DNA of 64,000 nt. Origin: Escherichia phage PJNS034. Numbering within the stretch: the first letter of the stretch is position 1; each line of letters starts with the position of its first letter. The notes beneath the pieces were generated by a model, which saw only the letters and a list, made by a program, of their open reading frames with translations, did not search any database and was not told the origin of the DNA. Both the position numbers and the translations under genes were made by a program. Positions 4,423 to 59,189 of the stretch are shown piece by piece. Location: sequence record PP391266.1. One strand, 5' to 3'.

Positions 4423-4500
4423 CTTGATGTAGCTCAGTTTGGTAGCAGCACTTGCTTTGGGAGCAAGGGGTCGAAGGTTCGAATCCTTCCATCAAGACCA
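4423..4500 (+). tRNA. tRNA-Pro (anticodon TGG), CCA encoded
   Basis: Hand-folded cloverleaf: acceptor cttgatg/catcaag, anticodon stem cttgc/gcaag with loop tttggga, T-arm gaagg-ttcgaat-ccttc; D-stem only 3 bp. Confidence 0.7.
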
Positions 4501-4501
4501 A

Positions 4502-4583
4502 GTGGGATTGGCTGAGTGGTCGAAAGCACCTGACTGTAAATCAGGCATATCACGCGGTGGTTCGAATCCATCATCCCACACCA
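4502..4583 (+). tRNA. tRNA-Tyr (anticodon GTA), CCA encoded
   Basis: Acceptor gtgggat/atcccac, anticodon stem cctga/tcagg with loop ctgtaaa, extended variable region, T-arm ggtgg-ttcgaat-ccatc. Confidence 0.65.
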
Positions 4584-4585
4584 AA

Positions 4586-4662
4586 GCGTCACTAACTCAA
4601 TTGGTTAGAGTAGCGGTCTTTTAAACCGCAGGTTCTGAGTTCGAGTCTCAGGTGGCGTACCA
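4586..4662 (+). tRNA. tRNA-Lys (anticodon TTT), CCA encoded
   Basis: Acceptor gcgtcac/gtggcgt (two G-U pairs), D-arm actc...gagt, anticodon stem gcggt/accgc with loop cttttaa, T-arm ctgag-ttcgagt-ctcag. Confidence 0.8.
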
Positions 4663-4664
4663 AA

Positions 4665-4754
4665 GGAAGTTAGGGCTTTGTGGAAAGCAATCGGTCTTGA
4701 AAACCGACCCACTGTAGCGATATGGTGATGGTTCGACTCCATTAGCTTCCTCCA
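4665..4754 (+). tRNA. tRNA-Ser (anticodon TGA), type II, CCA encoded
   Basis: Acceptor ggaagtt/agcttcc, anticodon stem tcggt/accga with loop cttgaaa, long variable arm, T-loop ttcgact. Confidence 0.75.
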
Positions 4755-4756
4755 AT

Positions 4757-4833
4757 TGTTTCGTAGCTCAGTTGGTAAGAGCGTTCGGCTGATAACCGAA
4801 AGGTCACAAGTTCGAGTCTTGTCGAAACAACCA
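4757..4833 (+). tRNA. tRNA-Ile (anticodon GAT), CCA encoded
   Basis: Canonical cloverleaf: acceptor tgtttcg/cgaaaca, D-arm gctc-agttggtaa-gagc, anticodon stem ttcgg/ccgaa with loop ctgataa, T-arm acaag-ttcgagt-cttgt. Confidence 0.85.
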
Positions 4834-4836
4834 AAT

Positions 4837-4925
4837 GACGGGTTGGCAGAGTTGGTTTATTGCAGCAGCTTGCTAAGTTGCCGAGTCGAAAGGCTCCGTG
4901 GGTTCGAATCCCACACCCGACGCCA
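4837..4925 (+). tRNA. tRNA-Ser (anticodon GCT), type II, CCA encoded
   Basis: Anticodon stem gcagc/gttgc with loop ttgctaa, 16-nt variable arm, T-arm gtggg-ttcgaat-cccac; acceptor has one A-A mismatch as read. Confidence 0.6.
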
Positions 4926-4926
4926 A

Positions 4927-5002
4927 GGACGATAAGCACATGTGGATGTGCGGCAGGCTGTTAACCTGATGGCAGTTGGTTCGAATCCAACATCGTCCGC
5001 CA
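4927..5002 (+). tRNA. tRNA-Asn (anticodon GTT), CCA encoded
   Basis: Acceptor ggacgat/atcgtcc, D-arm gcac...gtgc, anticodon loop ctgttaa, T-arm gttgg-ttcgaat-ccaac. Confidence 0.75.
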
Positions 5003-5004
5003 AT

Positions 5005-5079
5005 AGCGAGATAGTTCAGTGGTAGAATATCGGTTTCATACGCCGACCGTCGATGGTTCGATTCCATCTCTCGCTACCA
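5005..5079 (+). tRNA. tRNA with CAT anticodon (elongator Met or Ile2 type), CCA encoded
   Basis: Acceptor agcgaga/tctcgct fully paired at 1:72 (not initiator-like), anticodon stem tcggt/gccga with loop ttcatac, T-arm gatgg-ttcgatt-ccatc. Confidence 0.75.
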
Positions 5080-5095
5080 AACCTCTTTATCCGAT

Positions 5096-5167
5096 GGGAG
5101 TGTCCTTCTGGGAAGGATGTGGATTCCAACCCCACTAAGTAGAGTTCGATTCTTTACACTCCCGCCA
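5096..5167 (+). tRNA. tRNA-like, possibly tRNA-Gly (anticodon TCC), CCA encoded
   Basis: Acceptor gggagtg/cactccc and T-arm tagag-ttcgatt-cttta fold well; D-loop very short and one mismatch in the anticodon stem. Confidence 0.45.
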
Positions 5168-5174
5168 AATCCCT

Positions 5175-5251
5175 AGCCTTGTAGTGTAGTCTGGTTAGCA
5201 CACGTGACTTTGACTCACGGAGCTTAGGTTCGAATCCTGACAGGGCTGCCA
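5175..5251 (+). tRNA. tRNA-Gln (anticodon TTG), CCA encoded
   Basis: Acceptor agccttg/cagggct, D-arm gtgt...gcac, anticodon stem cgtga/tcacg with loop ctttgac, T-arm ttagg-ttcgaat-cctga. Confidence 0.8.
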
Positions 5252-8131: not shown

Positions 8132-8404
8132 ATGAGCGCATTAAATACTATGGTTGGTGGTTCACACTATCAGGCAGAAGGTGGCATTCAGCCGATTCAG
8201 TTCTACCACGCAAATCCACAGTTGAACTTTCAACAGTGTAATATGATTAAGTATGCTTTCCGTCACAAAGATAAGAACGGTTTGCAGGACTTACTCAAGG
8301 TTGTGCATTATGCCATGCTGGAGGCAGAGTTCCATTATCCGAAAGAAGATGTTGAGAAGTGGAAGTTACAGGTAGCGAATCTGATTGACCCACCTGCTTT
8401 TTGA
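8132..8404 (+). CDS. hypothetical protein (90 aa)
   Basis: ORF-track ORF. Confidence 0.3.
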   Translation: MSALNTMVGGSHYQAEGGIQPIQFYHANPQLNFQQCNMIKYAFRHKDKNGLQDLLKVVHYAMLEAEFHYPKEDVEKWKLQVANLIDPPAF

Positions 8405-8772: not shown

Positions 8773-9797
8773 TGAGCAAAATCCCCGTATGTAAGACAAC
8801 ACGACCTACGGTGGATTTAGCACTCATTGACGCAGACGTACTGCGTTACGAATTAGGGGCTGTGCAACTAGACCATCCTTATATCAAGGGTGAGAAGGTT
8901 CCAGCCCCTTCCTCGTTTGTTGAGGGCTTAGTTCAAGACCGTATTGAAACTATTCTGGACAGAACTGGTGCGAAAGACTTCTTATTGTTCCTCACAGGGC
9001 CGGGAAACTTCCGGTTTGATATTGCCAAACAGCAACCATATAAAGGCAACCGAGAAGATTTTGAAAAGCCTTTCCATTGGAAGACTGTTGACCGTTACCT
9101 CCGAACCGTTTATCCCTCCAAAATCCGTGAAGCATTCGGTAACGAGGCAGATGATGAATTGGGCATTACTCAATTACGTTCTGTCCTCGCAGGGGATAAG
9201 GATAACACCTGCATCGCTTCTCGTGACAAAGACCTGAGAACAGTGGAAGGATGGCATTACTCTTGGGCATGTGGTGAAGACCAGCCTGAGAAACCACTAC
9301 GTTACATCACTCAGCTTGAAGGTTATCGCTTCTTCTTCCAACAGATGCTTACTGGTGATAACACTGATAACATCATTGGTTGTGGTAAAAAGAAAGAAGT
9401 GATGTGGGGTGGTAAGCTCATGATGCGGCGTAAAGGCGTGGGCAAGAAAACTGCTGAGAAGTTACTTGCAGAGCTTGAGAACCAACAACAAATGTACGAT
9501 GTTGTTCGTGAACAGTATGTCGAAGTGTTTGAGGATGAAGCTGATACAGTGATGCTCGAACAAGCTCGGTTATTGTTTATTGGACAGACTGAGAAACAAC
9601 AATTTAAATGGCACTGGATTGAGGTGGTTGAATATGGAATTGGCTCCGAAGAAAGCGAAGTTGTGGAAGGAAAAGAACCTGAAGGGACGTTGGATGTTCC
9701 TGAGGAAAATCGACGGAGTGAGAGCACTTCGGAACCTAGACCCAACGATTCCAGCGAAGTATGTGAGCCGGAATGCGAAACCTCTGTACAATCTTGA
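8772..9797 (+). CDS. 5'-3' exonuclease (T7 gp6-like, FEN/RNase H-like)
   Basis: Segments ASRDKDLRTV and GDNTDNIIGCGKK match the CDKDF and GDITDGYSGIAGWG regions of T7 gene 6 exonuclease as recalled; last ~55 codons are low-complexity and overlap the ligase ORF. Confidence 0.7.
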   Translation: MSKIPVCKTTRPTVDLALIDADVLRYELGAVQLDHPYIKGEKVPAPSSFVEGLVQDRIETILDRTGAKDFLLFLTGPGNFRFDIAKQQPYKGNREDFEKPFHWKTVDRYLRTVYPSKIREAFGNEADDELGITQLRSVLAGDKDNTCIASRDKDLRTVEGWHYSWACGEDQPEKPLRYITQLEGYRFFFQQMLTGDNTDNIIGCGKKKEVMWGGKLMMRRKGVGKKTAEKLLAELENQQQMYDVVREQYVEVFEDEADTVMLEQARLLFIGQTEKQQFKWHWIEVVEYGIGSEESEVVEGKEPEGTLDVPEENRRSESTSEPRPNDSSEVCEPECETSVQS

Positions 9798-10332
9798 CCA
9801 CTTGGAGTTTGATGATGCTGAAATCTTTAATCAAAATTGGGAAACTTCCGTTTCAATGGTGCGTACTCATTGTGCGGCTCCTGTTCCTGCTGATTGCGTT
9901 TATCGTCTTGGTGATGGTCAGACCGATTCACGATTATACTTGTTCACGGTGCAAGACCCAACCGAAGAGTTCATTCGGAAGCATCTGGAAGAAGCTCTGG
10001 CGAAAGGTGATGAAGGCTTAATATTAAGGGAGGCCGATGTTGACGACCCGAAATGGCTCAAAGTCAAAAATAAAGAAACTCATGACGTGGTGGTTACGGG
10101 TTATCAGCCGGGCACCGGTAAGCATGAAGGACGGATGGGTGCTCTACTTACGACGAGAGGCAAAGTTGGTACAGGCTTCACAGACAGTGAACGAGACTAC
10201 TGGCAGCAACGCTGGGAAGAGGGTACTGTCGTAGGTGTTACGATTGAGGTGGAATGTATGGAGTTAACTTCCACTGGTAAATTCAGACACCCACGCTTTA
10301 TCCGTGAACGCCTTGATAAAGATGGCGAATAG
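9634..10332 (+). CDS. ATP-dependent DNA ligase (compact, T7 gp1.3-like)
   Basis: Adenylation motif I KIDGVR, EGLIL, WLKVK and C-terminal RHPRF-like motif; start placed at ATG 9634 (GAGG 10 nt upstream) rather than the TTG at 9580 given by the ORF track. Confidence 0.7.
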   Translation: MELAPKKAKLWKEKNLKGRWMFLRKIDGVRALRNLDPTIPAKYVSRNAKPLYNLDHLEFDDAEIFNQNWETSVSMVRTHCAAPVPADCVYRLGDGQTDSRLYLFTVQDPTEEFIRKHLEEALAKGDEGLILREADVDDPKWLKVKNKETHDVVVTGYQPGTGKHEGRMGALLTTRGKVGTGFTDSERDYWQQRWEEGTVVGVTIEVECMELTSTGKFRHPRFIRERLDKDGE

Positions 10333-10345
10333 CAGTATATTAACT

Positions 10346-10371
10346 AAGGTCACTTCGGTGGCCTTTTCTTT
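10346..10371 (+). terminator. Rho-independent terminator after ligase
   Basis: Stem aggtcac/gtggcct with ttcg loop, followed by tttcttt. Confidence 0.55.
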
Positions 10372-10450
10372 CATCTAACTATAGGCAAAACAATGAAACA
10401 GGCTGTATTTGATTTCGCTTCTCGCATGGTCGATAAGCTGACTGCTGATT

Positions 10451-11092
10451 ATGACAAAGCAGAAACCTCTGACGTTGCAGAACGCATCATGTCAGAACTC
10501 AAAAACTACATCAAAATGCGTGATGATGCACAACGTTCTCTGGAGAAAGCTAATGCGTAAGGTTTATATTGCAGGTCATATGTTAACTCGTGGTGCTCAG
10601 ATGCAACGTGCTGAGGAACGTGAGCTGGTATCTTCTTTGGGTCATCAACTCTACAACCCAATGGACAACAAGGAAATTAACGACAAGAAGCTCCACAAGG
10701 ACGATACAGGGCTGGCTGAACGAATCGTTAAGCAAGACACCGACGCTATTTTCTGGGCTGATACAGTGCTGATTGAGCCGCTTGCTGAGGCAAATGGCAC
10801 TCTGGTTGAGTTAGGACAGATTAAAGGTATGAAAGACCTCGCCAAGAAGCTGATGGAGTTACCTGCAACAAATGAGATTGAGTTCGCTGACCAAGCAATT
10901 GAATTGCTCAAACGAATCCTAGACCAGAAGGTTGTTGCTCACTTCGAAGATATCCGACGTGTCGAAGGTATCACCGAAACAGGCGACCGTCGCTCTCTTG
11001 GCATTAACCAGTATGTATATGGTACTGTCCTTGACCTGACAGATGGCAAAGGCTTCACTGAGTTTAAAGACTTGCCGGAGGCTCTTGCTTGA
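10451..11092 (+). CDS. nucleoside 2-deoxyribosyltransferase / Rcl(DNPH1)-like N-glycosidase family protein
   Basis: VYIAGHM near N-terminus and DTDAIFWADTVLIEPLAEANGTLVELGQ match the Rossmann-like core and Glu-containing active-site stretch of this family as recalled; true start probably the internal Met (codon 35). Confidence 0.55.
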   Translation: MTKQKPLTLQNASCQNSKTTSKCVMMHNVLWRKLMRKVYIAGHMLTRGAQMQRAEERELVSSLGHQLYNPMDNKEINDKKLHKDDTGLAERIVKQDTDAIFWADTVLIEPLAEANGTLVELGQIKGMKDLAKKLMELPATNEIEFADQAIELLKRILDQKVVAHFEDIRRVEGITETGDRRSLGINQYVYGTVLDLTDGKGFTEFKDLPEALA

Positions 11093-11751
11093 ACTGGAGA
11101 TTAATATGGTCAGTCTTTGCCGTGCTATCCATTCTGTTTGGGTGCGTTGTTTCAAAAGCAAGTTACGAAGTAATGGCGACGTCCCTAGTGGGCGTCATGT
11201 TCGTGATAGGGGTAGCCTTCAAGAAAGCAAGTGCGAATCTTTTGGGGGCTATACTGTGCGCTATGCTTGGGTTGATGAGCTGGCAAGCTGGATACTACAT
11301 GAACGCGATTATCAACATCTTCTTATTGCTACCACTCCAGTTATTAGCTTACGCCAATTGGACGACAGGGGTGTCGAAGCGAGAGCATCACAGGTACTTG
11401 GTGGAAACGGTCTGTCGCAAACGATTCTTGATTTACACATGTTGGCTAATTCCTCTCTTGGTAGCCGCATACTTCTCAGGCAGCCGTTTGTGGGTACACG
11501 ATGCTGTGACAGCCTCACTTGTGATTGTCGCAACACTTCTCCTCATGTTCAATACCAAAGAGCAATGGCAATTCTGGATTCCATACAATCTGGTAGAAGT
11601 CTTCATGTGGTTCATCGCAGCGAGTACAGCCCCTGAAATGCTTGCAATTATGTTCATGCGTATTGTATTCTTCATTAACAGTCTGATTGGCTATTACGAA
11701 TGGAGGAACGATGGCAATCCACGGACGCTACTTTCGACAGAAACCCGCTGA
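11089..11751 (+). CDS. PnuC-like nicotinamide riboside transporter (putative)
   Basis: 220-aa polytopic membrane protein; C-terminal LIGYYEWRN resembles the PnuC IYGWYEW signature; start overlaps stop of upstream Rcl-like gene. Confidence 0.45.
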   Translation: MNWRLIWSVFAVLSILFGCVVSKASYEVMATSLVGVMFVIGVAFKKASANLLGAILCAMLGLMSWQAGYYMNAIINIFLLLPLQLLAYANWTTGVSKREHHRYLVETVCRKRFLIYTCWLIPLLVAAYFSGSRLWVHDAVTASLVIVATLLLMFNTKEQWQFWIPYNLVEVFMWFIAASTAPEMLAIMFMRIVFFINSLIGYYEWRNDGNPRTLLSTETR

Positions 11752-12172
11752 GTTAAAAGGTACTGACTATGACTCACGTCTTGAGAAAAGGCTGCATGAG
11801 GCGCTTCCCGTCCTCAACCACCATCCAGCGAAAAGGCCGTATGTTCGACACCATACCTACGAGCCAGATTTCGAAGTACAAGGAAACAAGACATATCTTG
11901 TTGAAGCCAAAGGTTACTTCCAAGACCGTAACGAACTTGGCAAGTACCTCCCCATTGCGGAGTCTCTGGGCGATAGTGCTGAGTTGGTATTTGTGTTTGA
12001 GAATGCCGACAAACCAATCCACTTCCAAGCCAAACGTAAGGATGGAAGCAAAATGACACATCGTGAGTGGTGTGTTAAGAATGGATTTCAAGTCTTTGAC
12101 GAGGATGAGTTCCGAGTATGGATTCCAAGTGTTACTACTGTGACGGAATCGGGAGACACAGAGCTTTCGTAA
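11687..12172 (+). CDS. endonuclease I-like Holliday-junction resolvase (T7 gp3-like)
   Basis: HTYEPDFEVQGNKTYLVEAKGYF matches the T7 endonuclease I core HTYTPDFLLPNGIFVETKGLW (PD...E-x-K). Confidence 0.75.
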   Translation: MAITNGGTMAIHGRYFRQKPAELKGTDYDSRLEKRLHEALPVLNHHPAKRPYVRHHTYEPDFEVQGNKTYLVEAKGYFQDRNELGKYLPIAESLGDSAELVFVFENADKPIHFQAKRKDGSKMTHREWCVKNGFQVFDEDEFRVWIPSVTTVTESGDTELS

Positions 12173-12271: not shown

Positions 12272-12308
12272 AAGCCCCAAGGGATTTCTCCCAAGGGGCT
12301 TTTCTTTT
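12272..12308. terminator. bidirectional terminator between convergent gene blocks
   Basis: Palindromic agcccc-aaggga-tttc-tccc-aa-ggggct with T-runs on both strands, exactly where plus- and minus-strand gene blocks meet. Confidence 0.55.
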
Positions 12309-15300
12309 ACGCCATTCCTGCCACAGAACCACCGAGATTCATGTACTCTGCAAGGTTAGTGCCGTAAGCATCAGTTGCTCGTAAGTTACGAGACTGGAGA
12401 GCTTTCTTAACAGCACCATGACCAAGCAAGTGAGCAGAAGCTCGGATGCCTTCCATAGTTACCGGAACACCATCAATAGTCTGACCGATGTACTGGTCAA
12501 GACCCATGTTTTTGGTACGACGGTCTAACATCTTATTCCAATCTTCAAAAGCCTTTTCCTGTGCTTCTGGAGAGTTCAGGAACTCCTCTTTCGAGTTAAC
12601 CCCATACTTACCAGTCCAGTTAGACTTCTCGTTCAGAATAGATTTCTGACCACGACCAACACGACCTTGTGACTTGATAATACCTAAGTCAACAAGAGCA
12701 GGCCATCCAAATTGGTACTTACCGACATAACCGAGAGTGTTCTCGATATCGTACTTACCACCGGATTCACGCTGGCCTAACACGTCACCATATGCACTCA
12801 TCATACCTCCTGCATAAGCGCTACCAGCAAACATAGAAGTCAGACCAATTGCACTCAAACCTAATTTCTTAGCCAGTGCATTAGCTGATTTCTCGTTACG
12901 GGCATAACGAACGATAGTTTCTTTATCAGGGTCAACCATCGCATACTCATAGCCTTTATCAAAGGCTACCTCTGGTGAATCAACACCTTCTGCCAGTTCG
13001 TATGGGTTTACCACTTTGATTTCTGGGTCAGATTCCAGTGCTTTACCATCCAGAGCTTCTGCTGCGGTGTCTACAACTTGCTTAACCTGTTCGGTTGGCA
13101 TGTCTTGCATAGCATCGAGCATATTCTCTACTGGTGCTTCTGGAGTAGGAGTCGGTTCAGGTTGTGGTTCAGTTACCACTGGTTCTTCACGTACTGGAGC
13201 AGCAAAGTCTTCCTCAGCCATAACTACTGGCTTCTGTACTGGTTCATCCATCATCGCCTTAGCAATTGGGGATTCATCAGCACGTAAGGCTTGTTTGTAG
13301 TCTTCCAGACTGTTGTAAACCTTCGGAGCACGTTCTGGGTCATACAGGCCGTAAGCAGATGCGATTGCTCGCTGGTTAGCTGGCCCCATATAGTTGGTAG
13401 TCTCACCTTTCCCGAACACTGCTTTAATCTGGTTACGCATGTCCATAGTGTACAGGCCGTTAGCCCCATTCACCATTTTATCGTAGCCTTTAGAGCGACG
13501 GTATTCGATAGCACCAAGTACATCACCCATCGTCTTCGCCTGAGTCATTACGTCAGTAACAGATTCAGAAGCCTTACCTGCGTTGATTGCTTTCTTACCG
13601 AAGTTCTGAATTTGTTTCAGCATCGCATTGGATGCAGTAGCAATGTCAGCTTTCAGGGAATCAGCAATTGCAGCCACTTCTTCTGGAGTGTTACGGGCAA
13701 TGATTTCATCCAACGATGCACGAGTCTGTGCAGCCGTTTCTTCCAGTGACTTAACTTGCTCTTTCAGTGCCTTGATTGGAGCATCCAGTTGAGTTGCTTT
13801 CTTCTCAAGAATTTCCAGCTTACGTTCGTGTGCTTCTTTGCGTTTCTGCTCAGCAGCTTGTTCACGTTTCTGTTTGTCTTGGAGAGCCTTCTCTTCCTTC
13901 GCCTGTTTATCACGGAGAGCTTTGTCAGCAGCTTCTTGCTTATCGTGCATCTTCTGATATTCAGCAGCCAGTTTACGTTGTTCACGTTCCCAAGCCATAT
14001 CAGCTTTCTCACGAGCAGCTTCGTCTTTCGCTTGAGCTTTCGCTTCATCACGTTTAACACGAGCAGCATCTAACAGTTCTTTCTCACGGGCTTTGAAAGC
14101 AGCAATTTCCTCAGCATGTGAATCACGCTGTAAACGTTCTTCTGCACGTTGAGTTTCTTTCAGACGTTTCTGTTCAGCACTTGCTTGTTCTTTCTTCAGA
14201 CGGTCGCCACGTTGTAACAGCTTGTTAGCAGTTGCACGAAGTTCTTTCTGAGTCAGTGGAGCAGTAGAGCCGAAGGTCTGTGCTTCAACAACTTGTAATG
14301 CTTGTTCTTTCGGAATGCCAAGTGAATCAGCAAAGTCCATCAGGTTTTCATGCTGAGCATAAATCTGATTAACTGCATCATCTTCAGCTTTACGGGCTAC
14401 AGTCTCTTCTGGAGTCTCAGCACCTTTAGCCAGAGCATCACGCTCACGTTGCATTGCCTTAATCAGTGAAGCCTTCTCACTATTCGTAAGCTGACGCATA
14501 GAGCCAGTTACAGGGTCAATGTAAGGTGAAGTCAGGTCGTCCATTACGAACTGGTCAAGGCCGTACTTACTTGCCAAACCGGAAATATGTTCGTTCTGGG
14601 TTGTGATGTTTTTAGCTGCTTCATCACGGATACCTGCTTTAACTTCCTCTGCCTCTGTCTTAGCTTTCTCAGCCTGTGCATTACGAGCTTCCTCACGAGC
14701 ACGTTGAGCCAATTCAGTAATCTCACCAGCATCACGGATGTTAGCGATTTGGTCTTCCGGTACACCTGCACGACGAGCACGTTCTTCCAATGCTTGACGT
14801 TCAACTTGTGCTGCACGGTTACGAATGGTTTCAGTTTCACGAATAGCTGCACCCAATACTGCATCCAGACCACGAGGTGCTGGAGCATTTGGAGCAGGAG
14901 CCGCTGGAGTAGGTTCACCAGTTGCCAGTGCTTGCAGGTCAGATGGGTCACGAACTACAGGGGCAGGTTCTGGAACAACAGTAGGCTCTACAACCGTTGG
15001 TTCAGGAGTACGAGCGTATTCCATTGAAGCCAGAGATTGTAATGCTGCTTGTTCTTCTGCACGACTAATGAATCGAGCAGCCTGTTCAGAGTTAACTTCC
15101 GCAATCTGAGCATCAGACCAACCTTTGTTACGAAGCACTTCTGCCTGTACAGGAGAAACACCACCATCAGGTGCTGGCTGAGTCATTTCTGGAGTAACAA
15201 CTGGTTCAGGAGTTACAGTCTGTTCTGGAGCTACAGGTGGTACATCTGGAGTCGGCTCTGGAGCAACATCTGCTGGTGGCGGAGTTGGTTCTTCTGGAGC

Positions 15301-17139
15301 ACGAGCAGCCATAACACGGTTCTGAGCATCTGAGTCACGAGCGATTGCACGTAAGCCTTCGAAGTCCTGAGCCATACGAGCACGAGCTTTACCTTCACGA
15401 GAACGAGCGATGATACCCGGTAATTCAGTTGCACCGAAGGTTTTCAGAGCTACTACTGGCTTAGCCACTTTACCGATTGTCGCTGGTTGTGAAGCATAAT
15501 CTTCAATACCGTAACGATAAGCAGGGTCTTGGTTTGCCAACATCTTATCTTTGTAGATAAAGGATGCAGCATTCATTGCTGGGTTAAAACCTTTGTCACC
15601 AACAGTGAAACCATAGGTATCAAGTTGACGAGAGAGGTTTTCAGCACGTTGACCAATTGCATCGTAAATCAGTGAACGGTCAGAAGCGGTATCACGCATT
15701 GCTTTCACAATAGCGTTTGCATCGTTCATCATGTTACGCAGATTACGTTGCTGAGATATAGAAGCAGCAGGGTCAATCTCACCCATATCTTGACGCAGTT
15801 TCAGTTCCTGAATTGAATCATTCAACTGGTTAACTACATCTTCGAAAGCTGATACGTCTTGTGCTTGTGCTTTCTTACCATTACGACGGGCAGTAGCCAA
15901 TTCTTCTGGAGAGAACACGCGAGAACCGAAGTCCAAGTCACCAAGTGCTGATGCACCTGAAATCTTACGACGACGAGCAGCAGAGCGAATGTCACCTTCA
16001 GTCAGACCCATCATAGCTGCGGCAGAGCCGTAATCATCAGACAGTTCAGACAAGCCACGTTTCACACCAATGTCACGCATTGCTTCTGGAGAAATATCAA
16101 CACCAGCATCTTTCAAATCACCAAACGCTTTATAGAAAGCAGATGGGCCGATGTTTTCATTTACCTGAGCACGTTCCGTTACCAGTGCTTCACGCTGTTC
16201 TGGAGTAAGGTCTTTACCTACGAGGCTATTCAGTTCTTCATCACGGTGAAGGTTACGCATAGCTTCAACTTGGTCACGTTCAGTCAGGGCTGGATTACCA
16301 CCTGCTTCACGGATGTTACGGTCATTACGACCTGCAAAGCTACGAACTGCTGGAGCAATTTCCATTGGGGCACGAATACCACCAGAAACCAGACCACCAG
16401 TTACTGCATAATCCAACAGGTTTTGTGGGTCAACAGCAAGTTCCTGACGACGACCCATTTCGTATGCTGCACCAGAAGCGCCTGCACCGATTGCACCAGT
16501 TGCTACGGTTTCCGCCATTCGTCCAAGAGCAGTTTTACCGACAGTTGCAAAAGGCTTCCCATAGGGAATAAGCCCTAGAGCGGCTGCGGCAGTACCAGCA
16601 GTACGAGCGATATCCGTGTTACCAGCACCCTCTTGTTCAGCGTAGATAGAACCAGTGGTAGGGCCATATGAAGTAGCACCGAATGCTAAGTCACCAGCCA
16701 TTGTTGGTAAGCCAGATGCAGTTTGTTCTGCAACAAACGTACCCAAGTCACCTAAACCACGAATGTCACGCCAGTTTTCCACGGCATAACGTTGGTTCTT
16801 CTCACCATGCTCACGTAACTTACGGGCAAGTTCACGGTCATGATAAGACTGTTTAGTAACTTCACCTTCTTGCGTCTGACCAGCTTTCTGAGCCAAATCA
16901 GCCTGACGTGCTGCTGCTGCACCAAACAAACCTGATGCCAGTTCAGTACGTCCACGAGTAAACGCATTAGAGATGTTACCGAAGAATCCACGGTCTTCTG
17001 TTGGAGCTTCTTGTACAGGCAGGGGAGCCTGAGAGATGTTTTGTTCCTGAGCCATTGGGACATTGCCCGTAGGTTGTGGAGAGCCACCGCTTCCACTTTC
17101 CAATTGACGCAGTAATTCTGGGTCTGTAATTGGAGTCAT
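12307..17139 (-). CDS. large virion protein (1610 aa) with C-terminal lytic transglycosylase-like domain; internal ejection protein or tape-measure-like
   Basis: Gly/Ala-rich N-terminal third, Pro-rich linker (PEPTPDVPPVAPEQTVTPEP), long K/E/A coiled-coil, C-terminal QRESGGKY...GKYQFG resembling an SLT catalytic Glu-Ser segment. Confidence 0.55.
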   Translation of the reverse strand: MTPITDPELLRQLESGSGGSPQPTGNVPMAQEQNISQAPLPVQEAPTEDRGFFGNISNAFTRGRTELASGLFGAAAARQADLAQKAGQTQEGEVTKQSYHDRELARKLREHGEKNQRYAVENWRDIRGLGDLGTFVAEQTASGLPTMAGDLAFGATSYGPTTGSIYAEQEGAGNTDIARTAGTAAAALGLIPYGKPFATVGKTALGRMAETVATGAIGAGASGAAYEMGRRQELAVDPQNLLDYAVTGGLVSGGIRAPMEIAPAVRSFAGRNDRNIREAGGNPALTERDQVEAMRNLHRDEELNSLVGKDLTPEQREALVTERAQVNENIGPSAFYKAFGDLKDAGVDISPEAMRDIGVKRGLSELSDDYGSAAAMMGLTEGDIRSAARRRKISGASALGDLDFGSRVFSPEELATARRNGKKAQAQDVSAFEDVVNQLNDSIQELKLRQDMGEIDPAASISQQRNLRNMMNDANAIVKAMRDTASDRSLIYDAIGQRAENLSRQLDTYGFTVGDKGFNPAMNAASFIYKDKMLANQDPAYRYGIEDYASQPATIGKVAKPVVALKTFGATELPGIIARSREGKARARMAQDFEGLRAIARDSDAQNRVMAARAPEEPTPPPADVAPEPTPDVPPVAPEQTVTPEPVVTPEMTQPAPDGGVSPVQAEVLRNKGWSDAQIAEVNSEQAARFISRAEEQAALQSLASMEYARTPEPTVVEPTVVPEPAPVVRDPSDLQALATGEPTPAAPAPNAPAPRGLDAVLGAAIRETETIRNRAAQVERQALEERARRAGVPEDQIANIRDAGEITELAQRAREEARNAQAEKAKTEAEEVKAGIRDEAAKNITTQNEHISGLASKYGLDQFVMDDLTSPYIDPVTGSMRQLTNSEKASLIKAMQRERDALAKGAETPEETVARKAEDDAVNQIYAQHENLMDFADSLGIPKEQALQVVEAQTFGSTAPLTQKELRATANKLLQRGDRLKKEQASAEQKRLKETQRAEERLQRDSHAEEIAAFKAREKELLDAARVKRDEAKAQAKDEAAREKADMAWEREQRKLAAEYQKMHDKQEAADKALRDKQAKEEKALQDKQKREQAAEQKRKEAHERKLEILEKKATQLDAPIKALKEQVKSLEETAAQTRASLDEIIARNTPEEVAAIADSLKADIATASNAMLKQIQNFGKKAINAGKASESVTDVMTQAKTMGDVLGAIEYRRSKGYDKMVNGANGLYTMDMRNQIKAVFGKGETTNYMGPANQRAIASAYGLYDPERAPKVYNSLEDYKQALRADESPIAKAMMDEPVQKPVVMAEEDFAAPVREEPVVTEPQPEPTPTPEAPVENMLDAMQDMPTEQVKQVVDTAAEALDGKALESDPEIKVVNPYELAEGVDSPEVAFDKGYEYAMVDPDKETIVRYARNEKSANALAKKLGLSAIGLTSMFAGSAYAGGMMSAYGDVLGQRESGGKYDIENTLGYVGKYQFGWPALVDLGIIKSQGRVGRGQKSILNEKSNWTGKYGVNSKEEFLNSPEAQEKAFEDWNKMLDRRTKNMGLDQYIGQTIDGVPVTMEGIRASAHLLGHGAVKKALQSRNLRATDAYGTNLAEYMNLGGSVAGMA

Positions 17140-52645: not shown

Positions 52646-53455
52646 ATGACGATTCGCCTGATTACTCTTGGTGCTGACCCTGAAACTATTGTTGCTCGCA
52701 ACGGTGTTCCAACTCACGCTATTGGTCTTATCGGCGGTACTAAGGAAGAACCACGTAAGATTATCCGTGGTGGTCGTGAAGTTGGTGCGGTGCAGGAAGA
52801 TAATGTCCTGTATGAGTTCAACATCATGCCACACGATACTCGTCAGGGATTCATTGACAACATTCAGCAGATGTTGGAAGTGGGTCGTGAGATTCTGGGT
52901 GATGGTTACGAAATCACTAATAAGACTTCTCACATCTTCTCTGATGAAGACATGGCTCATTTCCCTGACTCAGCGTTTATCTTCGGTTGTGAACCGGATT
53001 TCTTCGCTGGTAATGGTGAGATGAATCCGAAGCCTGCTGCACCGTGGCCGGGTCTGCGTACCGCAGGTGGTCATGTTCACTTCGGGTTCGATGAGCGTGT
53101 AGTTCGTGATGATGAGAATGTTCGTTCTCTGATTCAACTGTGCGATATGTATATGGCGTTGCCGTCAATGCTTCTGGACACTGACGACCTGCGTAAAGAA
53201 CTGTATGGTAAGGCCGGTGCATTCCGTCCGAAAGCATATGGTGCTGAATATCGTACACTGTCAGGTTTCTGGATTCATAATCCTGAAAATACTGGCTTCG
53301 TGTTTGACCAAGCGCAGAAAGCGTATGATGCGTTGGCAACTGGTCTGGGTCGTGAGATGTTGGCACGTTTCCCATACGAACTGGTTGTCGATATCATCAA
53401 CAGCAATGACCGTGGACGTGCTGAACGTGCCCTGAAAGTTATGCAGGTTGCATAA
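52646..53455 (+). CDS. amidoligase-like protein, divergent (269 aa)
   Basis: GADPETIV and TAGGHVHFGF parallel the GLELELE and STHVHLD segments of the downstream amidoligase-like ORF; preceded by conserved leader. Confidence 0.4.
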   Translation: MTIRLITLGADPETIVARNGVPTHAIGLIGGTKEEPRKIIRGGREVGAVQEDNVLYEFNIMPHDTRQGFIDNIQQMLEVGREILGDGYEITNKTSHIFSDEDMAHFPDSAFIFGCEPDFFAGNGEMNPKPAAPWPGLRTAGGHVHFGFDERVVRDDENVRSLIQLCDMYMALPSMLLDTDDLRKELYGKAGAFRPKAYGAEYRTLSGFWIHNPENTGFVFDQAQKAYDALATGLGREMLARFPYELVVDIINSNDRGRAERALKVMQVA

Positions 53456-53637
53456 TGGAAGAAGGTCTGCTGATTAGCTGGGTTGAATCTCCAGCGAACC
53501 GTAAGACCAAGACTCATACCCTCTTCTTCGAAAGCCTGGACGAGGGTTATGAGTTCATGGCCTCTAAAAGTTGTGTAATTCAAGTACAACGCATTCCACT
53601 GGTGAGAAAGAATGGCGAAACTGGTAACGGTAAATAA
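53455..53637 (+). CDS. hypothetical protein (60 aa)
   Basis: ORF-track ORF, start overlaps previous stop. Confidence 0.25.
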   Translation: MEEGLLISWVESPANRKTKTHTLFFESLDEGYEFMASKSCVIQVQRIPLVRKNGETGNGK

Positions 53638-53803
53638 CGCAGATAAAACTGTAACTCGTCGTGTCTTTATGGACAACGAAGAGGGTATCATGTGGGCAGT
53701 TGACCAAGCCCGCACAGCACTGTCAGTCGTGACTGATGATGTGGAAGTGGTCGAGGCTTCCAGCCGTAAAGGTTGGGAAGGTCATATCGCATGTGATTGC
53801 TAA
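53612..53803 (+). CDS. hypothetical protein (63 aa)
   Basis: ORF-track ORF. Confidence 0.25.
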   Translation: MAKLVTVNNADKTVTRRVFMDNEEGIMWAVDQARTALSVVTDDVEVVEASSRKGWEGHIACDC

Positions 53804-53827
53804 TTTAAACTGAACGAGAGAACTAAA

Positions 53828-54436
53828 ATGTCAATCAATATGTCAAGTGGTGATTTACGTCTGTATTGGGGTGGGTGTTATGCACCTGTTGCATGGGATG
53901 CAGCAGATAGTGGCGTAGCAACACTGGTAATTCACGACGTTCGTGTGATAAATCCAATGTCACGTGACTACACCGAAGCACGAGTTCAAGGTGAACTATT
54001 CTTCATTCGTAATGGAGAAGAGGCTCGTGGTAATTTTGAAGGTCGTATGTCTGACCTCCTCGGTGATGGGTTCACCACTCCTCAACGCAATATCGGTTAT
54101 ATCCGTGTTCACGGTCAACCGTATTGGATTACCTTCAAACGTCGTCGTACAAATCGTAAAGGCATCACCAATGACCGTCTGGCTGTGTATGTAGCTGGGC
54201 ATCGTGGTGAAGCAGGTTTGAACTTCGGTAGTGATGTGTTGTGTCGTCTGTATGCAACCTTTGATGGTCGTATCTCTGATGATTTCTGTATTCATCAGAA
54301 CATGATTCATTATAAAGGTGTGGTTGTCGGACGTTATGAGCGTCACAATCGTATTGTATTAGCTGAACGTTTTGCGTATCTTAGCTGGTCGCTGGAACGT
54401 ATCGGTGGTTACGACGTAACGGTGGAGGTTGAGTAA
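53828..54436 (+). CDS. hypothetical protein (202 aa) inside ligase cluster
   Basis: Preceded by conserved TTAAACTGAACGAG leader; stop overlaps amidoligase start. Confidence 0.4.
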   Translation: MSINMSSGDLRLYWGGCYAPVAWDAADSGVATLVIHDVRVINPMSRDYTEARVQGELFFIRNGEEARGNFEGRMSDLLGDGFTTPQRNIGYIRVHGQPYWITFKRRRTNRKGITNDRLAVYVAGHRGEAGLNFGSDVLCRLYATFDGRISDDFCIHQNMIHYKGVVVGRYERHNRIVLAERFAYLSWSLERIGGYDVTVEVE

Positions 54437-55260
54437 TGATTATTGCTGACATTTTAGGGCATGGTCGTGGGTCGGATGTTGTTGATACGCATCCGTTGAT
54501 TGTTGGTCGAGGCCGTGTAGGACTCGAATTAGAACTGGAGAATATGCCAAATGCTCGACAAGCTGCTGGTTGGACAGTTACTGGTGACGGTTCTCTGCGT
54601 AATAGCGGCGTGGAATATGTACTCCGTGGTGCTCAGGGAGGTATGGAGTTATTTAATTCGATACTTTCTCTGGAAGAAGCACTCATGGCACATCAATGTG
54701 ATGCTAACCTTCGCTGCTCTACTCACGTTCACCTTGATATACGTCGGCTCACTGTGGCTCAACTCAAGCGTTTACTTCTGGCTTATACAGTCTTTGAGCC
54801 ATTAATCTTTGAGTTGTCCGGTGCGCATCGTCGTACTAACAACTTCTGTCCGTCGTTTAGTTTCGCTCAGCAACAAATTCGTAAGCTGAGTAACAACTGG
54901 CATCATGATGGTGAACGATTCCTTGCTCGTATTGTGGAAGGTCGTGACCGCCAATCCAGTGATAAGTATTCAGCACTGAATCTGGTTCCAATCTTCACTC
55001 AGGGTTCTGTAGAGTTCCGTGGTGCAGAAGCGAAGCCAAGTGCAGGTAAGATGATTCGTCTGGCTAACCGTATTCTAAGTCTGTATGACTTAGCGGTTAA
55101 CTCTGATATGAATCAGTCTGATGCTGAGTTCATTAACTCACTGGCGAACCTTGATGTTCAACAGGCATTGATGGGTACGATTCCTCGTGACTTCGAACTC
55201 AGCGAAGAACTGGTGAATGAAGGACGTGTCTTAGCGTTCGATATTATCTCTCTGGGGTGA
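54436..55260 (+). CDS. amidoligase (Amidoligase_2 / carboxylate-amine ligase-like) protein
   Basis: VGLELELE...DGSLRNSGVEYV...STHVHLD resembles the putative amidoligase family (glutamine-synthetase-like fold) as recalled. Confidence 0.5.
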   Translation: MIIADILGHGRGSDVVDTHPLIVGRGRVGLELELENMPNARQAAGWTVTGDGSLRNSGVEYVLRGAQGGMELFNSILSLEEALMAHQCDANLRCSTHVHLDIRRLTVAQLKRLLLAYTVFEPLIFELSGAHRRTNNFCPSFSFAQQQIRKLSNNWHHDGERFLARIVEGRDRQSSDKYSALNLVPIFTQGSVEFRGAEAKPSAGKMIRLANRILSLYDLAVNSDMNQSDAEFINSLANLDVQQALMGTIPRDFELSEELVNEGRVLAFDIISLG

Positions 55261-55261
55261 C

Positions 55262-55477
55262 ATGAGCTGGAACGAACGAGAGTATCGTAAACCAAAGTTG
55301 GGCACTGTATGTGTCCACTTCGAACCTTCGTATAAGTCAACCTTTGGAAGTACGAAGAAGTTCCCTAACGCATCGTTCTACTTGAGTACGAACGGTGTAA
55401 TCATCATCCGTGATATGGATGGTGACAACATCTGTGCATACCCTGAAGGTGTGTGGCTGAATGTTGAAATGAAGTGA
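55262..55477 (+). CDS. hypothetical protein (71 aa)
   Basis: ORF-track ORF; followed by a clean terminator hairpin. Confidence 0.3.
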   Translation: MSWNEREYRKPKLGTVCVHFEPSYKSTFGSTKKFPNASFYLSTNGVIIIRDMDGDNICAYPEGVWLNVEMK

Positions 55478-55485
55478 TTAACTCA

Positions 55486-55508
55486 AGCCCTTCTTCGGGA
55501 GGGTTTTA
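55486..55508 (+). terminator. Rho-independent terminator (cassette copy 3)
   Basis: 8-bp stem agcccttc/ggagggtt with ttcg loop, then tttta; preceded by AACTCAAG. Confidence 0.55.
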
Positions 55509-55563
55509 TGGTAATCATTACCACAAACTATTGAAACTAACTATTGAACTTGAGGAAAGTATT

Positions 55564-57156: not shown

Positions 57157-57439
57157 TAAAATTGTAATTCGTATGCCGAAAGACGACATTGAATGTGAGC
57201 GGAAATATCCGTTCACTTACTTCATGAATGCAGCGCTGCGTGGTATGCAGCGTCGCTACTCTGAACAAGCGTCGGCAAAGTTTGGTAGTGAAGTTGAGAT
57301 TCTATTCCCAACTGCATTATCAAAAATGATTCATGACCACATGGTCACTCTGTATCAACAGGAAGGATTCGAACTCGCTGAAGAAGATTTCGAAGACTCC
57401 GAACAATACCGCAAATATCTGAAACTAATTAAGGGCTAA
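57146..57439 (+). CDS. hypothetical protein (97 aa)
   Basis: ATG overlapping the amidotransferase stop; ORF-track frame. Confidence 0.35.
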   Translation: MATDKIVIRMPKDDIECERKYPFTYFMNAALRGMQRRYSEQASAKFGSEVEILFPTALSKMIHDHMVTLYQQEGFELAEEDFEDSEQYRKYLKLIKG

Positions 57440-57444
57440 AACAA

Positions 57445-58938: not shown

Positions 58939-58967
58939 TTGCTTTAGGGTATTCTTCGGAGTACCCT

Positions 58968-59189
58968 ATGTCGATTGAACCGAACGAGGAATATATGAAA
59001 GTATGGGTAGTTATGTTCCAAGAGTATGACCTAGCCGAAGTGCTGGAAATCTACTCGAAGGAAGAAGATGCTATAGCACATCGTCAGGCTGAAATTGATA
59101 AGAGCTTGTCATACGCTAAGAAGTGGAATGTCAAACCACACCCTGCGCTCGAACAGTTTTATACAATTCACGAAAAAGAGGTAAAGTAA
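58968..59189 (+). CDS. hypothetical protein (73 aa)
   Basis: ATG lies at the 3' edge of a hairpin whose loop carries GGAG. Confidence 0.3.
   Translation: MSIEPNEEYMKVWVVMFQEYDLAEVLEIYSKEEDAIAHRQAEIDKSLSYAKKWNVKPHPALEQFYTIHEKEVK

What the first reader, a model, noticed from the sequence alone, without database searches (positions are those of the whole stretch)
10451..11751. Translationally coupled Rcl/deoxyribosyltransferase-like enzyme and PnuC-like transporter
An N-glycosidase/deoxyribosyltransferase-fold gene ends in an ATGA overlap with a polytopic membrane protein carrying a PnuC-like C-terminal signature. PnuC proteins import nicotinamide riboside and the Rcl family cleaves or exchanges bases on (deoxy)nucleotides. 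The pair could remodel nucleotide or pyridine-nucleotide pools, to supply or exclude a DNA precursor or to sustain NAD during infection.
Basis: partly seen in the sequence, partly recalled or inferred. Interest (0 to 1): 0.6.

Follow-up and report, generated by a model that had tools for sequence, protein, structure and literature searches.

The report
Phage base-swapping enzyme coupled to nucleoside transporter
This phage carries two overlapping genes, a nucleoside/nucleotide base-cleaving enzyme and a vitamin-B3-type (PnuC-like) membrane transporter; the pairing recurs in unrelated phages, has not been described as a unit, and what it carries is still unknown.

Summary
The finding is real, with two corrections. 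The enzyme gene most likely starts at ATG 10553 (179 aa), not 10451. The four-base overlap with the transporter gene is TTGA (TTG start at 11089), not ATGA; the nearest relative, Pantoea phage TacPo2, has ATGA at that spot.

The enzyme has a nucleoside 2-deoxyribosyltransferase/Rcl fold with its catalytic Glu (E86, GTLVELG) invariant. The membrane protein is a full-length Pnu-family member (Pfam 1.6e-21; 4QTN 7e-11) with the ligand motif and gate tryptophans.

The main new result is that the pair is a conserved module. The transporter belongs to a small, mostly phage-borne Pnu clade. In all six context look-ups, and in annotated Grimontviridae and T5-like Vibrio phages, the same enzyme gene lies directly upstream or a few genes upstream; NadR was never seen. 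Staphylococcal phages couple this enzyme family to an unrelated SWEET/PQ-loop transporter instead.

Neighbours are DNA-precursor genes (nucleotide kinases, ribonucleotide reductase, ligase, nucleases). No NAD enzyme was found. I favour a role in deoxynucleos(t)ide pool remodelling (about 0.45) over nicotinamide riboside/NAD+ supply (about 0.3). The substrate cannot be settled from sequence. I found no paper describing the pairing.

The parts
10553..11092 (+). Enzyme of the NDT/Rcl (DrHyd) superfamily, 179 aa, probable N-glycosyl hydrolase or transferase. Candidate nucleophile is E86 (codon 10808..10810) in GTLVELG. Y5, D62, the INDK loop (42-45) and D133-x-R135 are also conserved.
11089..11751 (+). 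Pnu-family (PnuC-like) polytopic transporter, 220 aa, TTG start. The WxxW(x)3N ligand motif is W160-N167 (11566..11589). The gate tryptophans are W91 and W205.
   Evidence: Pfam PF04973 E 1.6e-21. TIGR01528 73.8 bits. PHROG 1880 E 1e-40. PDB 4QTN PnuC E 6.8e-11 over residues 20-206. Seven hydrophobic segments. Family-wide conserved positions.
11089..11092 (+). TTGA start/stop overlap joining the two genes (translational coupling).
   Evidence: Read directly from the sequence. TacPo2 has ATGA at the same place. Other loci have junctions from -14 to +13 nt.
11077..11081 (+). GGAGG ribosome-binding site, 7 nt upstream of the TTG start, inside the 3' end of the enzyme gene.
   Evidence: Read directly from the sequence.
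10393..10560 (+). Small 55-aa ORF whose stop overlaps the enzyme start by 8 nt (ATGCGTAA). No family match. First gene of the tightly packed block.
   Evidence: The same arrangement is annotated in TacPo2.
11711..12172 (+). Endonuclease I (T7 gp3-like). Probable ATG start at 11711 after a GGAGG, overlapping the transporter's 3' end by 41 nt. Last gene of the block.
   Evidence: Pfam PF05367 E 5e-7, PHROG 945 E 4e-27. The 41-nt overlap is also annotated in TacPo2.
10346..10365 (+). Hairpin with a UUCG loop and a U-rich tail between the ligase-like gene and the block. Possibly a terminator or an RNA-processing site. This is context only, and the evidence is weak.
   Evidence: One search found it, but terminator-like sites occur at the chance rate in this region. 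In one search it folds at -10.9 kcal/mol, z -1.5.
8132..8404 (+). 90-aa DUF3310 protein, nucleotide-kinase-like (PHROG families named deoxynucleoside monophosphate kinase / nucleotide kinase). It lies in the same DNA-metabolism module (context).
   Evidence: PHROG 26149 E 1e-38, PHROG 236 E 4e-22. Pfam PF11753 E 3.6e-11.

Best explanation
The two genes form one conserved phage module. One is a cytoplasmic N-glycosyl enzyme of the deoxyribosyltransferase/Rcl superfamily. The other is a Pnu-type facilitated-diffusion carrier, translated from the same message through a 4-nt overlap.

Shown here:
- both family memberships;
- intact catalytic and transport motifs;
- strict co-occurrence and fixed gene order across unrelated phage lineages.

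Inferred:
- Pnu carriers are uniporters that move only unphosphorylated solutes and depend on a cytoplasmic enzyme to pull the flux. I therefore take the enzyme to be the carrier's metabolic partner, in the place that the NadR kinase occupies for PnuC.
- The module sits among genes for host-DNA breakdown and dNTP supply, and no NAD enzyme is present. I therefore judge that it most likely serves the phage's DNA-precursor supply. The enzyme would remove or exchange bases on deoxyribonucleosides or, given its conserved arginines, on 5'-phosphorylated deoxynucleotides. The carrier would pass the unphosphorylated partner (a nucleoside or free base) across the inner membrane, either importing extra precursor or venting surplus product.
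- Neither the direction of transport nor the exact substrate has been shown.
For: Family identity.

The transporter belongs to a small Pnu clade. There are 255 clusters at E<=1e-3 among 1.84 billion representatives, and about 20 at E<1e-20.

In 6 of 6 context look-ups of clade members, down to 28% identity, the enzyme gene lies directly upstream or one small ORF away.
- One of these is a truncated contig; its upstream fragment carries the family's C-terminal motif.
- One is a stand-alone cassette wedged between oppositely oriented portal and tailspike genes.

The same pair occurs in Proteus phage 3H10_20, Vibrio phage River4, Cronobacter phage GAP52 and Aeromonas phage BUCT695. Genus counts in the phage database nearly match, transporter vs enzyme: Vibrio 51/50, Proteus 8/8, Cronobacter 6/6, Pantoea 1/1, Escherichia 1/1.

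There is an independent analogue in staphylococcal phages. Kayvirus Team1 and Sextaecvirus PMBT8 place the same enzyme family immediately upstream of a 7-TM PQ-loop/SWEET-fold protein.

DNA-precursor context:
- nucleotide-kinase-like gene, exonuclease, ligase-like gene and endonuclease I in the window;
- a dNMP kinase directly after the enzyme in Aeromonas phage 4_4572;
- NrdD, a dCTP deaminase/dUTPase-family gene and a MazG-like gene nearby in other loci.

Precedent: PnuN is a predicted deoxynucleoside Pnu carrier (PMC7749635). PnuT rejects phosphorylated substrates and works by facilitated diffusion (PMC5749112).
Against: No substrate was measured, and sequence cannot assign specificity within the Pnu family.

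NCBI's PnuC equivalog model scores above its cutoff. The motif carries Asn as in PnuC. One of the nearest non-clade relatives lies next to a NiaR-like NAD regulator. All three lean towards nicotinamide riboside.

E. coli has no broad deoxynucleoside kinase (my own knowledge), and none was found in the window. Imported deoxynucleosides other than thymidine would therefore have no obvious route to dNMPs.

An Rcl-type hydrolase would destroy dNMPs rather than supply them.

The enzyme family also occurs without any adjacent transporter gene (SPbeta-like prophages, Clostridium phages, Aeromonas Lahexavirus). The coupling is therefore not obligatory.

A preprint found two phage NDTs from unmodified genomes inactive on dA, dG and dZ nucleosides. 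I could not tell whether they belong to this family.
Confidence: 0.45

Rival explanations
1. Nicotinamide riboside / NAD+ supply. The transporter is a true PnuC that imports nicotinamide riboside. Host NadR, or the NDT-like enzyme acting on the nicotinamide-ribosyl bond, feeds it into NAD+. This would sustain infection or counter NAD+-depleting defence systems.
For: - TIGR01528 'nicotinamide riboside transporter PnuC' equivalog scores 73.8 bits against a cutoff of 42.45.
- The only solved relative is the NR transporter 4QTN.
- The WxxW(x)3N motif carries Asn as in PnuC.
- A close non-clade relative (P0156) lies beside a NiaR-like regulator.
- Phage PnuC+NadR operons have been proposed as NAD+ reconstitution pathways.
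- Aravind's group predicts that DrHyd and YAcAr SLOG domains use NAD+. A YAcAr SLOG gene follows the transporter in Proteus phage 3H10_20.
Against: - No NadR, Nampt, NMNAT or other NAD enzyme was found in the window or in any related locus examined.
- The clade's constant partner is an N-glycosyl enzyme, not a kinase.
- Cleaving NR would not trap it as NMN.
- Making NR or NMN from nicotinamide by base exchange is thermodynamically uphill (inference from the high-energy nicotinamide-ribosyl bond).
- The host already has PnuC, and the phage protein is only about 17% identical to it.
- The neighbours are DNA-precursor genes.
Confidence: 0.3
2. Export or sanitation. The enzyme cleaves an unwanted or non-canonical nucleotide or nucleoside, for example modified dNMPs released from host DNA, a defence-made analogue, or a surplus pool. 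The uniporter lets the freed base or nucleoside leave the cell, which pulls the reaction and prevents re-salvage.
For: - DNPH1/Rcl and MilB, which are structural relatives, are nucleotide hydrolases.
- Arginines are conserved.
- Pnu carriers are bidirectional facilitators.
- The enzyme works alone in some phages.
- The pair sits between the nuclease genes that presumably degrade host DNA.
Against: - There is no evidence for any particular target.
- These phages are not known to have modified DNA (not tested here).
- Bases and nucleosides can already leave through host systems (my own knowledge).
Confidence: 0.15
3. The two genes are functionally unrelated. They are adjacent only because of inherited synteny in a compact genome.
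For: - Overlapping starts and stops are common throughout this genome. The 55-aa ORF and endonuclease I also overlap their neighbours.
- In GAP52 and BUCT695 several genes separate the two.
- The enzyme occurs without the transporter in some phages.
Against: - The pairing holds across podophage, T5-like siphophage and other backbones with different flanking genes.
- It occurs as an isolated cassette.
- Staphylococcal phages recreate it with a non-homologous SWEET-fold carrier.
- No member of this Pnu clade was seen without the enzyme.
Confidence: 0.07

Closest known systems
PnuC-NadR nicotinamide riboside salvage (Enterobacteria, Haemophilus; also PnuC+NadR operons in T5-like phages)
   Same: A Pnu-family uniporter paired with a cytoplasmic enzyme encoded beside it. 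The carrier has the same fold and the WxxW(x)3N motif.
   Different: Here the partner is an N-glycosyl hydrolase/transferase, not a kinase/adenylyltransferase. The transporter is a separate clade, about 17% identical to E. coli PnuC and 24% to Neisseria mucosa PnuC. No NAD genes are nearby.
PnuN plus nucleoside 2-deoxyribosyltransferase deoxynucleoside salvage of Lactobacillales (PnuN predicted only)
   Same: A Pnu-type carrier proposed for deoxynucleosides, together with an NDT-fold enzyme serving dNTP supply (plus my own knowledge of Lactobacillus NDT).
   Different: PnuN is itself unproven. I could not obtain a PnuN sequence for comparison. Lactobacilli also have deoxynucleoside kinases, and neither this phage nor, to my knowledge, its host supplies one. 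The phage enzyme is a distinct subfamily with a helical insert and conserved arginines.
DNPH1/Rcl and MilB/BcmB nucleotide N-glycosidases
   Same: Same fold. The Tyr, Asp and Glu triad lies at equivalent positions. The GT-x-V-E-[LI]-G motif resembles that of MilB. A 5'-phosphorylated substrate is plausible.
   Different: Sequence similarity is not significant (E about 2). The phosphate-binding residues of DNPH1 are not recognisably conserved. No activity data exist.
Enterococcus faecalis V583 'conserved protein' 7M5H (NDT-like, uncharacterised)
   Different: 7M5H has the canonical GPLF N-terminal motif. It lacks the phage family's helical insert and most of the C-terminal GDRRSLG motif. Its function is unknown.
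Phage NAD+ reconstitution pathways NARP1/NARP2
   Same: Phage-encoded auxiliary metabolism that may counter nucleotide- or NAD-depleting immunity.
   Different: The enzymes are different (Adps/Namat, Nampt/Nmnat), there is no transporter, and no homology.

Membership tests
Pnu transporter family (PF04973 / TIGR01528) | Profile HMM score above the curated cutoff over the whole 7-TM core | tested here: met
   PF04973 scores 77.5 bits against a cutoff of 27.3, over residues 29-207. TIGR01528 scores 73.8 against 42.45. PHROG 1880 E 1e-40.
Pnu transporter family (PF04973 / TIGR01528) | WxxW(x)3[D/N] ligand motif in TM6, and tryptophans at the cytoplasmic ends of TM3 and TM7 | tested here: met
   W160-Q-F-W163-I-P-Y-N167, plus W91 and W205. 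These are conserved in the clade and in 50 other Pnu proteins. The motif definition comes from PMC5749112.
Pnu transporter family (PF04973 / TIGR01528) | Sequence relationship to the solved PnuC structure | tested here: met
   4QTN E 6.8e-11, residues 20-206 aligned to 35-229. The fold of the window protein itself was not modelled.
PnuC proper (nicotinamide riboside transporter) | Transports nicotinamide riboside | not testable with these tools
   This needs uptake or complementation assays. Specificity-determining residues could not be established. The clade-specific N72 replaces D/E in 66% of other Pnu proteins, but E. coli PnuC also lacks the acidic residue there.
PnuC proper (nicotinamide riboside transporter) | Genomic link to NAD metabolism (NadR, NiaR, NAD+ riboswitch, nadA) | tested here: not met
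   No NAD gene was found in the window or next to any clade member. The partner is always the NDT-like gene. E. coli pnuC lies next to nadA, and the outgroup P0156 lies next to a NiaR-like gene.
Nucleoside 2-deoxyribosyltransferase / Rcl (DrHyd) superfamily | Flavodoxin-like NDT fold | tested here: met
Nucleoside 2-deoxyribosyltransferase / Rcl (DrHyd) superfamily | Catalytic Glu nucleophile in a G-T-x-x-E-x-G motif, with the N-terminal Tyr and the Asp of helix 3 | tested here: met
   E86 in GTLVELG, Y5 and D62 are invariant in 37 homologues and in the wider set including staphylococcal phages and 7M5H. They align with the equivalent residues of NDT 6EVS.
Nucleoside 2-deoxyribosyltransferase / Rcl (DrHyd) superfamily | Pfam PF05014 score above the gathering threshold | tested here: not met
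   27.6 bits against a cutoff of 28.8, and only residues 4-93 match. Many close homologues do carry a precomputed PF05014 annotation. This is a divergent subfamily, not a non-member.
Classical NDT (class I/II, nucleoside substrates) | Transfers 2-deoxyribose between free bases using deoxynucleoside donors; Asp six residues before the nucleophile (as in 6EVS) | tested here: inconclusive
   Activity is not testable here. The residue six positions before E86 is Ala80, with Asn81 next to it, where NDT 6EVS has Asp. The 'D92' numbering is recalled from memory.
DNPH1/Rcl-type dNMP hydrolase | 5'-phosphate binding site; hydrolysis of dNMP to base plus deoxyribose 5-phosphate | tested here: inconclusive
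   R19, R135 and R146 are conserved in the aligned phage homologues; R136 and R147 in most. They lie in the region after strand 5, which in homologues completes the neighbouring subunit's active site (inference). The serine-rich DNPH1 phosphate site is not recognisable. Activity is not testable here.

The most novel reading that the evidence does not exclude
Phages of several families carry a general 'N-glycosyl enzyme plus SWEET-fold uniporter' module (Pnu in Gram-negative hosts, PQ-loop in staphylococci). In it, the carrier's driving enzyme is a base-exchanging or base-cleaving enzyme acting on 5'-phosphorylated deoxynucleotides, not a kinase.

The module would re-tune the dNMP pool released from GC-richer host DNA to the AT-richer phage genome. 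The window is 45% GC. Related phage loci are 33-43% GC, against hosts of roughly 39-61% by my own knowledge. Free bases or nucleosides would be exchanged with the medium through the carrier.
Probability: 0.15. Interest if true: 0.75.

Novelty: new variant of a known kind. Interest (0 to 1): 0.5.

Why it matters
Each gene already has a database label. The pair as a unit, and the fact that this Pnu clade always travels with an N-glycosyl enzyme and never with NadR, is not described in the literature I could search.

If the module imports or reshapes DNA precursors, it is a new route by which lytic phages gain independence from host nucleotide supply. That would also bear on dNTP-depleting defence systems. 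If it handles nicotinamide riboside, it is a third kind of phage NAD+ pathway.

Either way, current automatic annotation ('PnuC-like nicotinamide mononucleotide transport') may mislead. The enzyme family is present in hundreds of staphylococcal Kayvirus-type genomes, a group I know to be used therapeutically, where its SWEET-fold partner is still labelled hypothetical.

Tried and rejected
(1) Inferring substrate from clade-specific residues. N72 replaces D/E found in 66% of other Pnu proteins and in Neisseria PnuC. But E. coli PnuC, annotated as the NR transporter, also lacks an acidic residue there. I do not use this as evidence against NR.

(2) Scanning IMG/VR with a clade alignment. The first alignment was too divergent. 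The second gave only 5 loci, which adds nothing beyond GenBank phages.

(3) Homology between the staphylococcal PQ-loop partner and the Pnu clade. hhalign gave a probability of 4%. The two are analogous, not demonstrably homologous.

(4) Searching for NadR, Nampt, NMNAT or a deoxynucleoside kinase among the window's other + strand ORFs with PHROGs and Pfam. None was found. Many ORFs have no family match, so this absence is not proof.

(5) The alternative-frame ORF 11043..11636, which has an ATG at 11106 after a GGAG. It matches no family and was rejected.

(6) Literature searches for PnuC + deoxyribosyltransferase + phage, for PnuN, for anti-defence NDT and for PJNS034. None describes the pair. 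The structural paper on PnuC (PubMed 25291599) is not held, so ligand-contact residues could not be checked.

(7) The promoter and terminator scan. Hits occur at chance frequency.

(8) Exact look-up of the transporter protein, with either an M or an L start and with a later start. It is not on record. I could not see how the public record annotates it.
Full report
**What the window is.** The window is almost a whole genome of a roughly 65-kb phage. It has a T7-like replication set: primase/helicase, DNA polymerase, exonuclease, a ligase-like gene and endonuclease I. It also has ten tRNA genes. The nearest GenBank phage in the collection is Pantoea phage TacPo2, 81% identical in DNA over the finding and with all genes labelled hypothetical. 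The enzyme protein is 100% identical to a 'hypothetical protein' of Escherichia phage PJNS034.

**Checking the observation.** Both ORFs are real, with two corrections.
- The listed ORF 10451..11092 starts inside the preceding 55-aa ORF. All homologues begin at the equivalent of ATG 10553 (MRKVYIAGH...), and TacPo2 is annotated that way. The enzyme is therefore 179 aa.
- The enzyme's TGA stop (11090..11092) overlaps the transporter's start, but the start codon is TTG (11089..11091). The overlap reads TTGA, not ATGA.
- TacPo2 has ATGA at the identical position and the same N-terminus, MNWR.
- A GGAGG lies 7 nt upstream of the TTG.
- W7 is nearly invariant in the clade and lies before any alternative start.
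- The whole block (55-aa ORF, enzyme, transporter, endonuclease I) is joined by overlaps of 8, 4 and 41 nt, as in TacPo2.

**The transporter.**
- It matches Pfam PF04973 at E 1.6e-21 over residues 29-207, NCBI's PnuC equivalog above cutoff, and PHROG 1880.
- It matches the solved Neisseria PnuC structure 4QTN at 6.8e-11.
- It keeps the family's ligand motif WxxW(x)3N (W160..N167) and both proposed gate tryptophans (W91, W205), as defined in PMC5749112.
- It is only about 17% identical to E. coli's own PnuC.
- An exhaustive HMMER search of 1.84 billion representative proteins found only 255 relatives at E<=1e-3, and about 20 at E<1e-20. It therefore belongs to a small, distinct clade.

**The enzyme.**
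- It matches PHROG 1817 (nucleoside 2-deoxyribosyltransferase) at 3e-50. Its Pfam PF05014 score is just below threshold.
- In 37 homologues Y5, D62 and E86 (GT-x-V-E-L-G) are invariant. They align with the Tyr/Asp/Glu catalytic set of NDTs.
- The family adds a variable helical insert after the nucleophile, an invariant Y-x-P...INDK loop, and a conserved H-x-x-D-x-R-R...G-D-R-R-S-L-G segment.
- R19, R135 and R146 persist in the aligned phage homologues, including staphylococcal phages.
- In NDT and Rcl the equivalent segment completes the neighbouring subunit's active site near the 5' position. From this I infer, without demonstration, that the substrate may be 5'-phosphorylated or otherwise anionic.

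**The pair is a conserved module.**
- I looked up genomic context for six members of the transporter clade, down to 28% identity. In every case the enzyme gene lies immediately upstream or one small ORF away. In one truncated contig the upstream fragment carries the enzyme family's C-terminal motif.
- The backbones differ: T7-like with NrdD, DnaB/PIF1-type, and others.
- In one contig the pair, plus a 51-aa ORF, is a stand-alone + strand cassette between minus-strand portal and tailspike genes.
- Annotated phages show the same. The genes are adjacent in Proteus phage 3H10_20 and Vibrio phage River4 (a T5-like Thalassavirus). They are a few genes apart in Cronobacter phage GAP52 and Aeromonas phage BUCT695.
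- Junctions range from a 14-nt overlap to a 13-nt gap.
- In the phage database, genus counts for clade transporters and close enzyme homologues nearly coincide: Vibrio 51/50, Proteus 8/8, Cronobacter 6/6, Pantoea 1/1, Escherichia 1/1.
- NadR was never seen beside a clade member.

**Staphylococcal phages.**
- The enzyme family is much wider than the transporter clade. It occurs in 509 phage records, 391 of them staphylococcal.
- In Kayvirus Team1 and Sextaecvirus PMBT8 the gene directly after the enzyme (8-nt overlap and 2-nt gap) encodes a protein of about 195 aa with multiple hydrophobic segments, seven in PMBT8. It carries PQ-loop repeats.
- Its model (pLDDT 86) best matches SWEET, KDEL receptor and cystinosin structures.
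- It shows no sequence homology to the Pnu clade.
- The same enzyme family has therefore been coupled twice to 7-TM SWEET-type carriers. This argues strongly that enzyme and carrier act on a shared small solute.
- The coupling is not universal. SPbeta-like prophages, Clostridium phages and Aeromonas Lahexavirus have the enzyme without an adjacent carrier.

**What it does.** Pnu carriers are facilitators that reject phosphorylated compounds and rely on a cytoplasmic enzyme to pull flux (PMC5749112). The known partners are kinases. In phages, PnuC has been noted with NadR. Here the partner is an N-glycosyl enzyme. Two readings compete.

*DNA precursors (favoured, about 0.45).*
- The module sits between a ligase-like gene and endonuclease I, 2 kb from a DUF3310 nucleotide-kinase-like gene.
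- Elsewhere it lies beside dNMP kinase genes. In Aeromonas phage 4_4572 the kinase gene starts at the enzyme's stop codon.
- NrdD, a dCTP deaminase/dUTPase-family gene and a MazG-like gene are also nearby in other loci.
- A deoxynucleoside-specific Pnu subfamily (PnuN) has been predicted.

*Nicotinamide riboside / NAD+ (about 0.3).*
- For it: the PnuC equivalog score, the Asn form of the motif, a NiaR-linked near relative, and a neighbouring YAcAr SLOG gene in some phages. That family is predicted to use NAD+.
- Against it: the absence of any NAD enzyme, and the fact that cleaving nicotinamide riboside would not trap it as NMN.

Export or sanitation of an unwanted nucleotide product (about 0.15) and mere synteny (about 0.07) remain possible.

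**Limits.** I could not assign substrate from residues. The clade-specific Asn72 replaces an acidic residue common in other Pnu proteins, but E. coli PnuC lacks that residue too.

**Novelty.** Each gene is individually labelled in PHROGs and in some GenBank records. No paper in the searchable library mentions the pairing. I class it as a new variant of a known kind: a Pnu carrier plus a partner enzyme, with an N-glycosyl enzyme in place of a kinase. It is of moderate interest until the substrate is measured.

Noticed in passing
L022 3480-4677 (Staphylococcus phage Team1); L024 2477-3789 (phage PMBT8): Staphylococcal Kayvirus and Sextaecvirus phages place the same NDT-like enzyme family directly upstream of a 7-TM PQ-loop/SWEET-fold membrane protein that is annotated only as hypothetical. 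In Team1 an RNA ligase gene directly precedes the enzyme.
   Followed up: yes
window 52646-59596 (+ strand): A cluster of COOH-NH2 ligase, amidoligase, glutamine amidotransferase (GlmS-like), an ATP-grasp protein (PHROG label 'ribosomal protein S6 glutaminyl transferase') and gamma-glutamyl cyclotransferase genes. It looks like a peptide or amide-bond modification system of unknown target.
   Followed up: partly
window 9580-10332: The 'ligase' ORF (250 aa as listed) matches only the C-terminal OB part of ATP-dependent DNA ligases with confidence. The adenylation domain is barely detectable (E 0.049). As listed, it overlaps the exonuclease ORF by about 218 nt. It may be a short or divergent ligase with a later start. 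A similar 225-aa OB-only protein occurs in L021.
   Followed up: no
several loci: window 9580-10332; L003 825-1931; L002 1-744; L014 1954-3042; L017 813-2147; L021 2245-2922; L025 1-409; L022 2591-3487; L031 2-727: A DNA or RNA ligase gene recurs just upstream of the enzyme (or of the Pnu gene), across both T7-like and unrelated backbones. This could be inherited synteny or a functional hint.
   Followed up: partly
L003 3609-4013 (Proteus phage 3H10_20); L005 2009-2371 (Aeromonas phage BUCT695): A small YAcAr/YspA-type SLOG protein lies directly after the Pnu gene in 3H10_20 (Pfam PF10686 E 5e-10) and within the enzyme-transporter cluster in BUCT695 (same PHROG 289). It is absent from the window's block.
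   Followed up: partly
L027 2501-3651 (Aeromonas phage 4_4572): Here the enzyme gene is followed, with start and stop sharing a base, by a T4 gp1-type dNMP kinase (PHROG 139 E 4e-33) instead of a transporter.
   Followed up: partly
L023 3279-4049; L026 2063-3064: In Clostridium phage CS42 and Arcanobacterium phage TPWB06 the enzyme carries N-terminal extensions of about 75 and about 150 residues of unknown function.
   Followed up: no
window 11089-11751: The exact transporter protein is not in the 15-billion-protein collection with either an M or an L start, or with a later ATG start. The enzyme from the same phage is in the collection (PJNS034). The TTG-started gene may be missing or called differently in the public record.
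   Followed up: partly
window 10346-10365: An 8-bp hairpin with a UUCG loop and a U-rich tail lies between the ligase-like gene and the 55-aa ORF. A sigma-70-like match (10/12) lies at 10313-10341. Both occur at chance frequency for the region.
   Followed up: partly
window 4423-5251: An array of ten tRNA genes (Pro, Tyr, Lys, Ser, Ile, Ser, Asn, Met, Trp, Gln) on the + strand. TacPo2 has eleven in the equivalent place.
   Followed up: no
window 12307-17139 (- strand): A 1610-aa protein with long Ala/Glu/Lys-rich coiled-coil-like stretches. Its C-terminal region looks lysozyme- or transglycosylase-like by eye, so it is probably an internal virion or ejection protein. Not analysed.
   Followed up: no
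L006 6594-7304 (SPbeta-like prophage of Bacillus spizizenii): In this SPbeta-like prophage the gene after the enzyme is a 236-aa PHROG 8902 protein. It contains a sequence resembling a Nudix box (REMKEEL) but has no Pfam match.
   Followed up: partly
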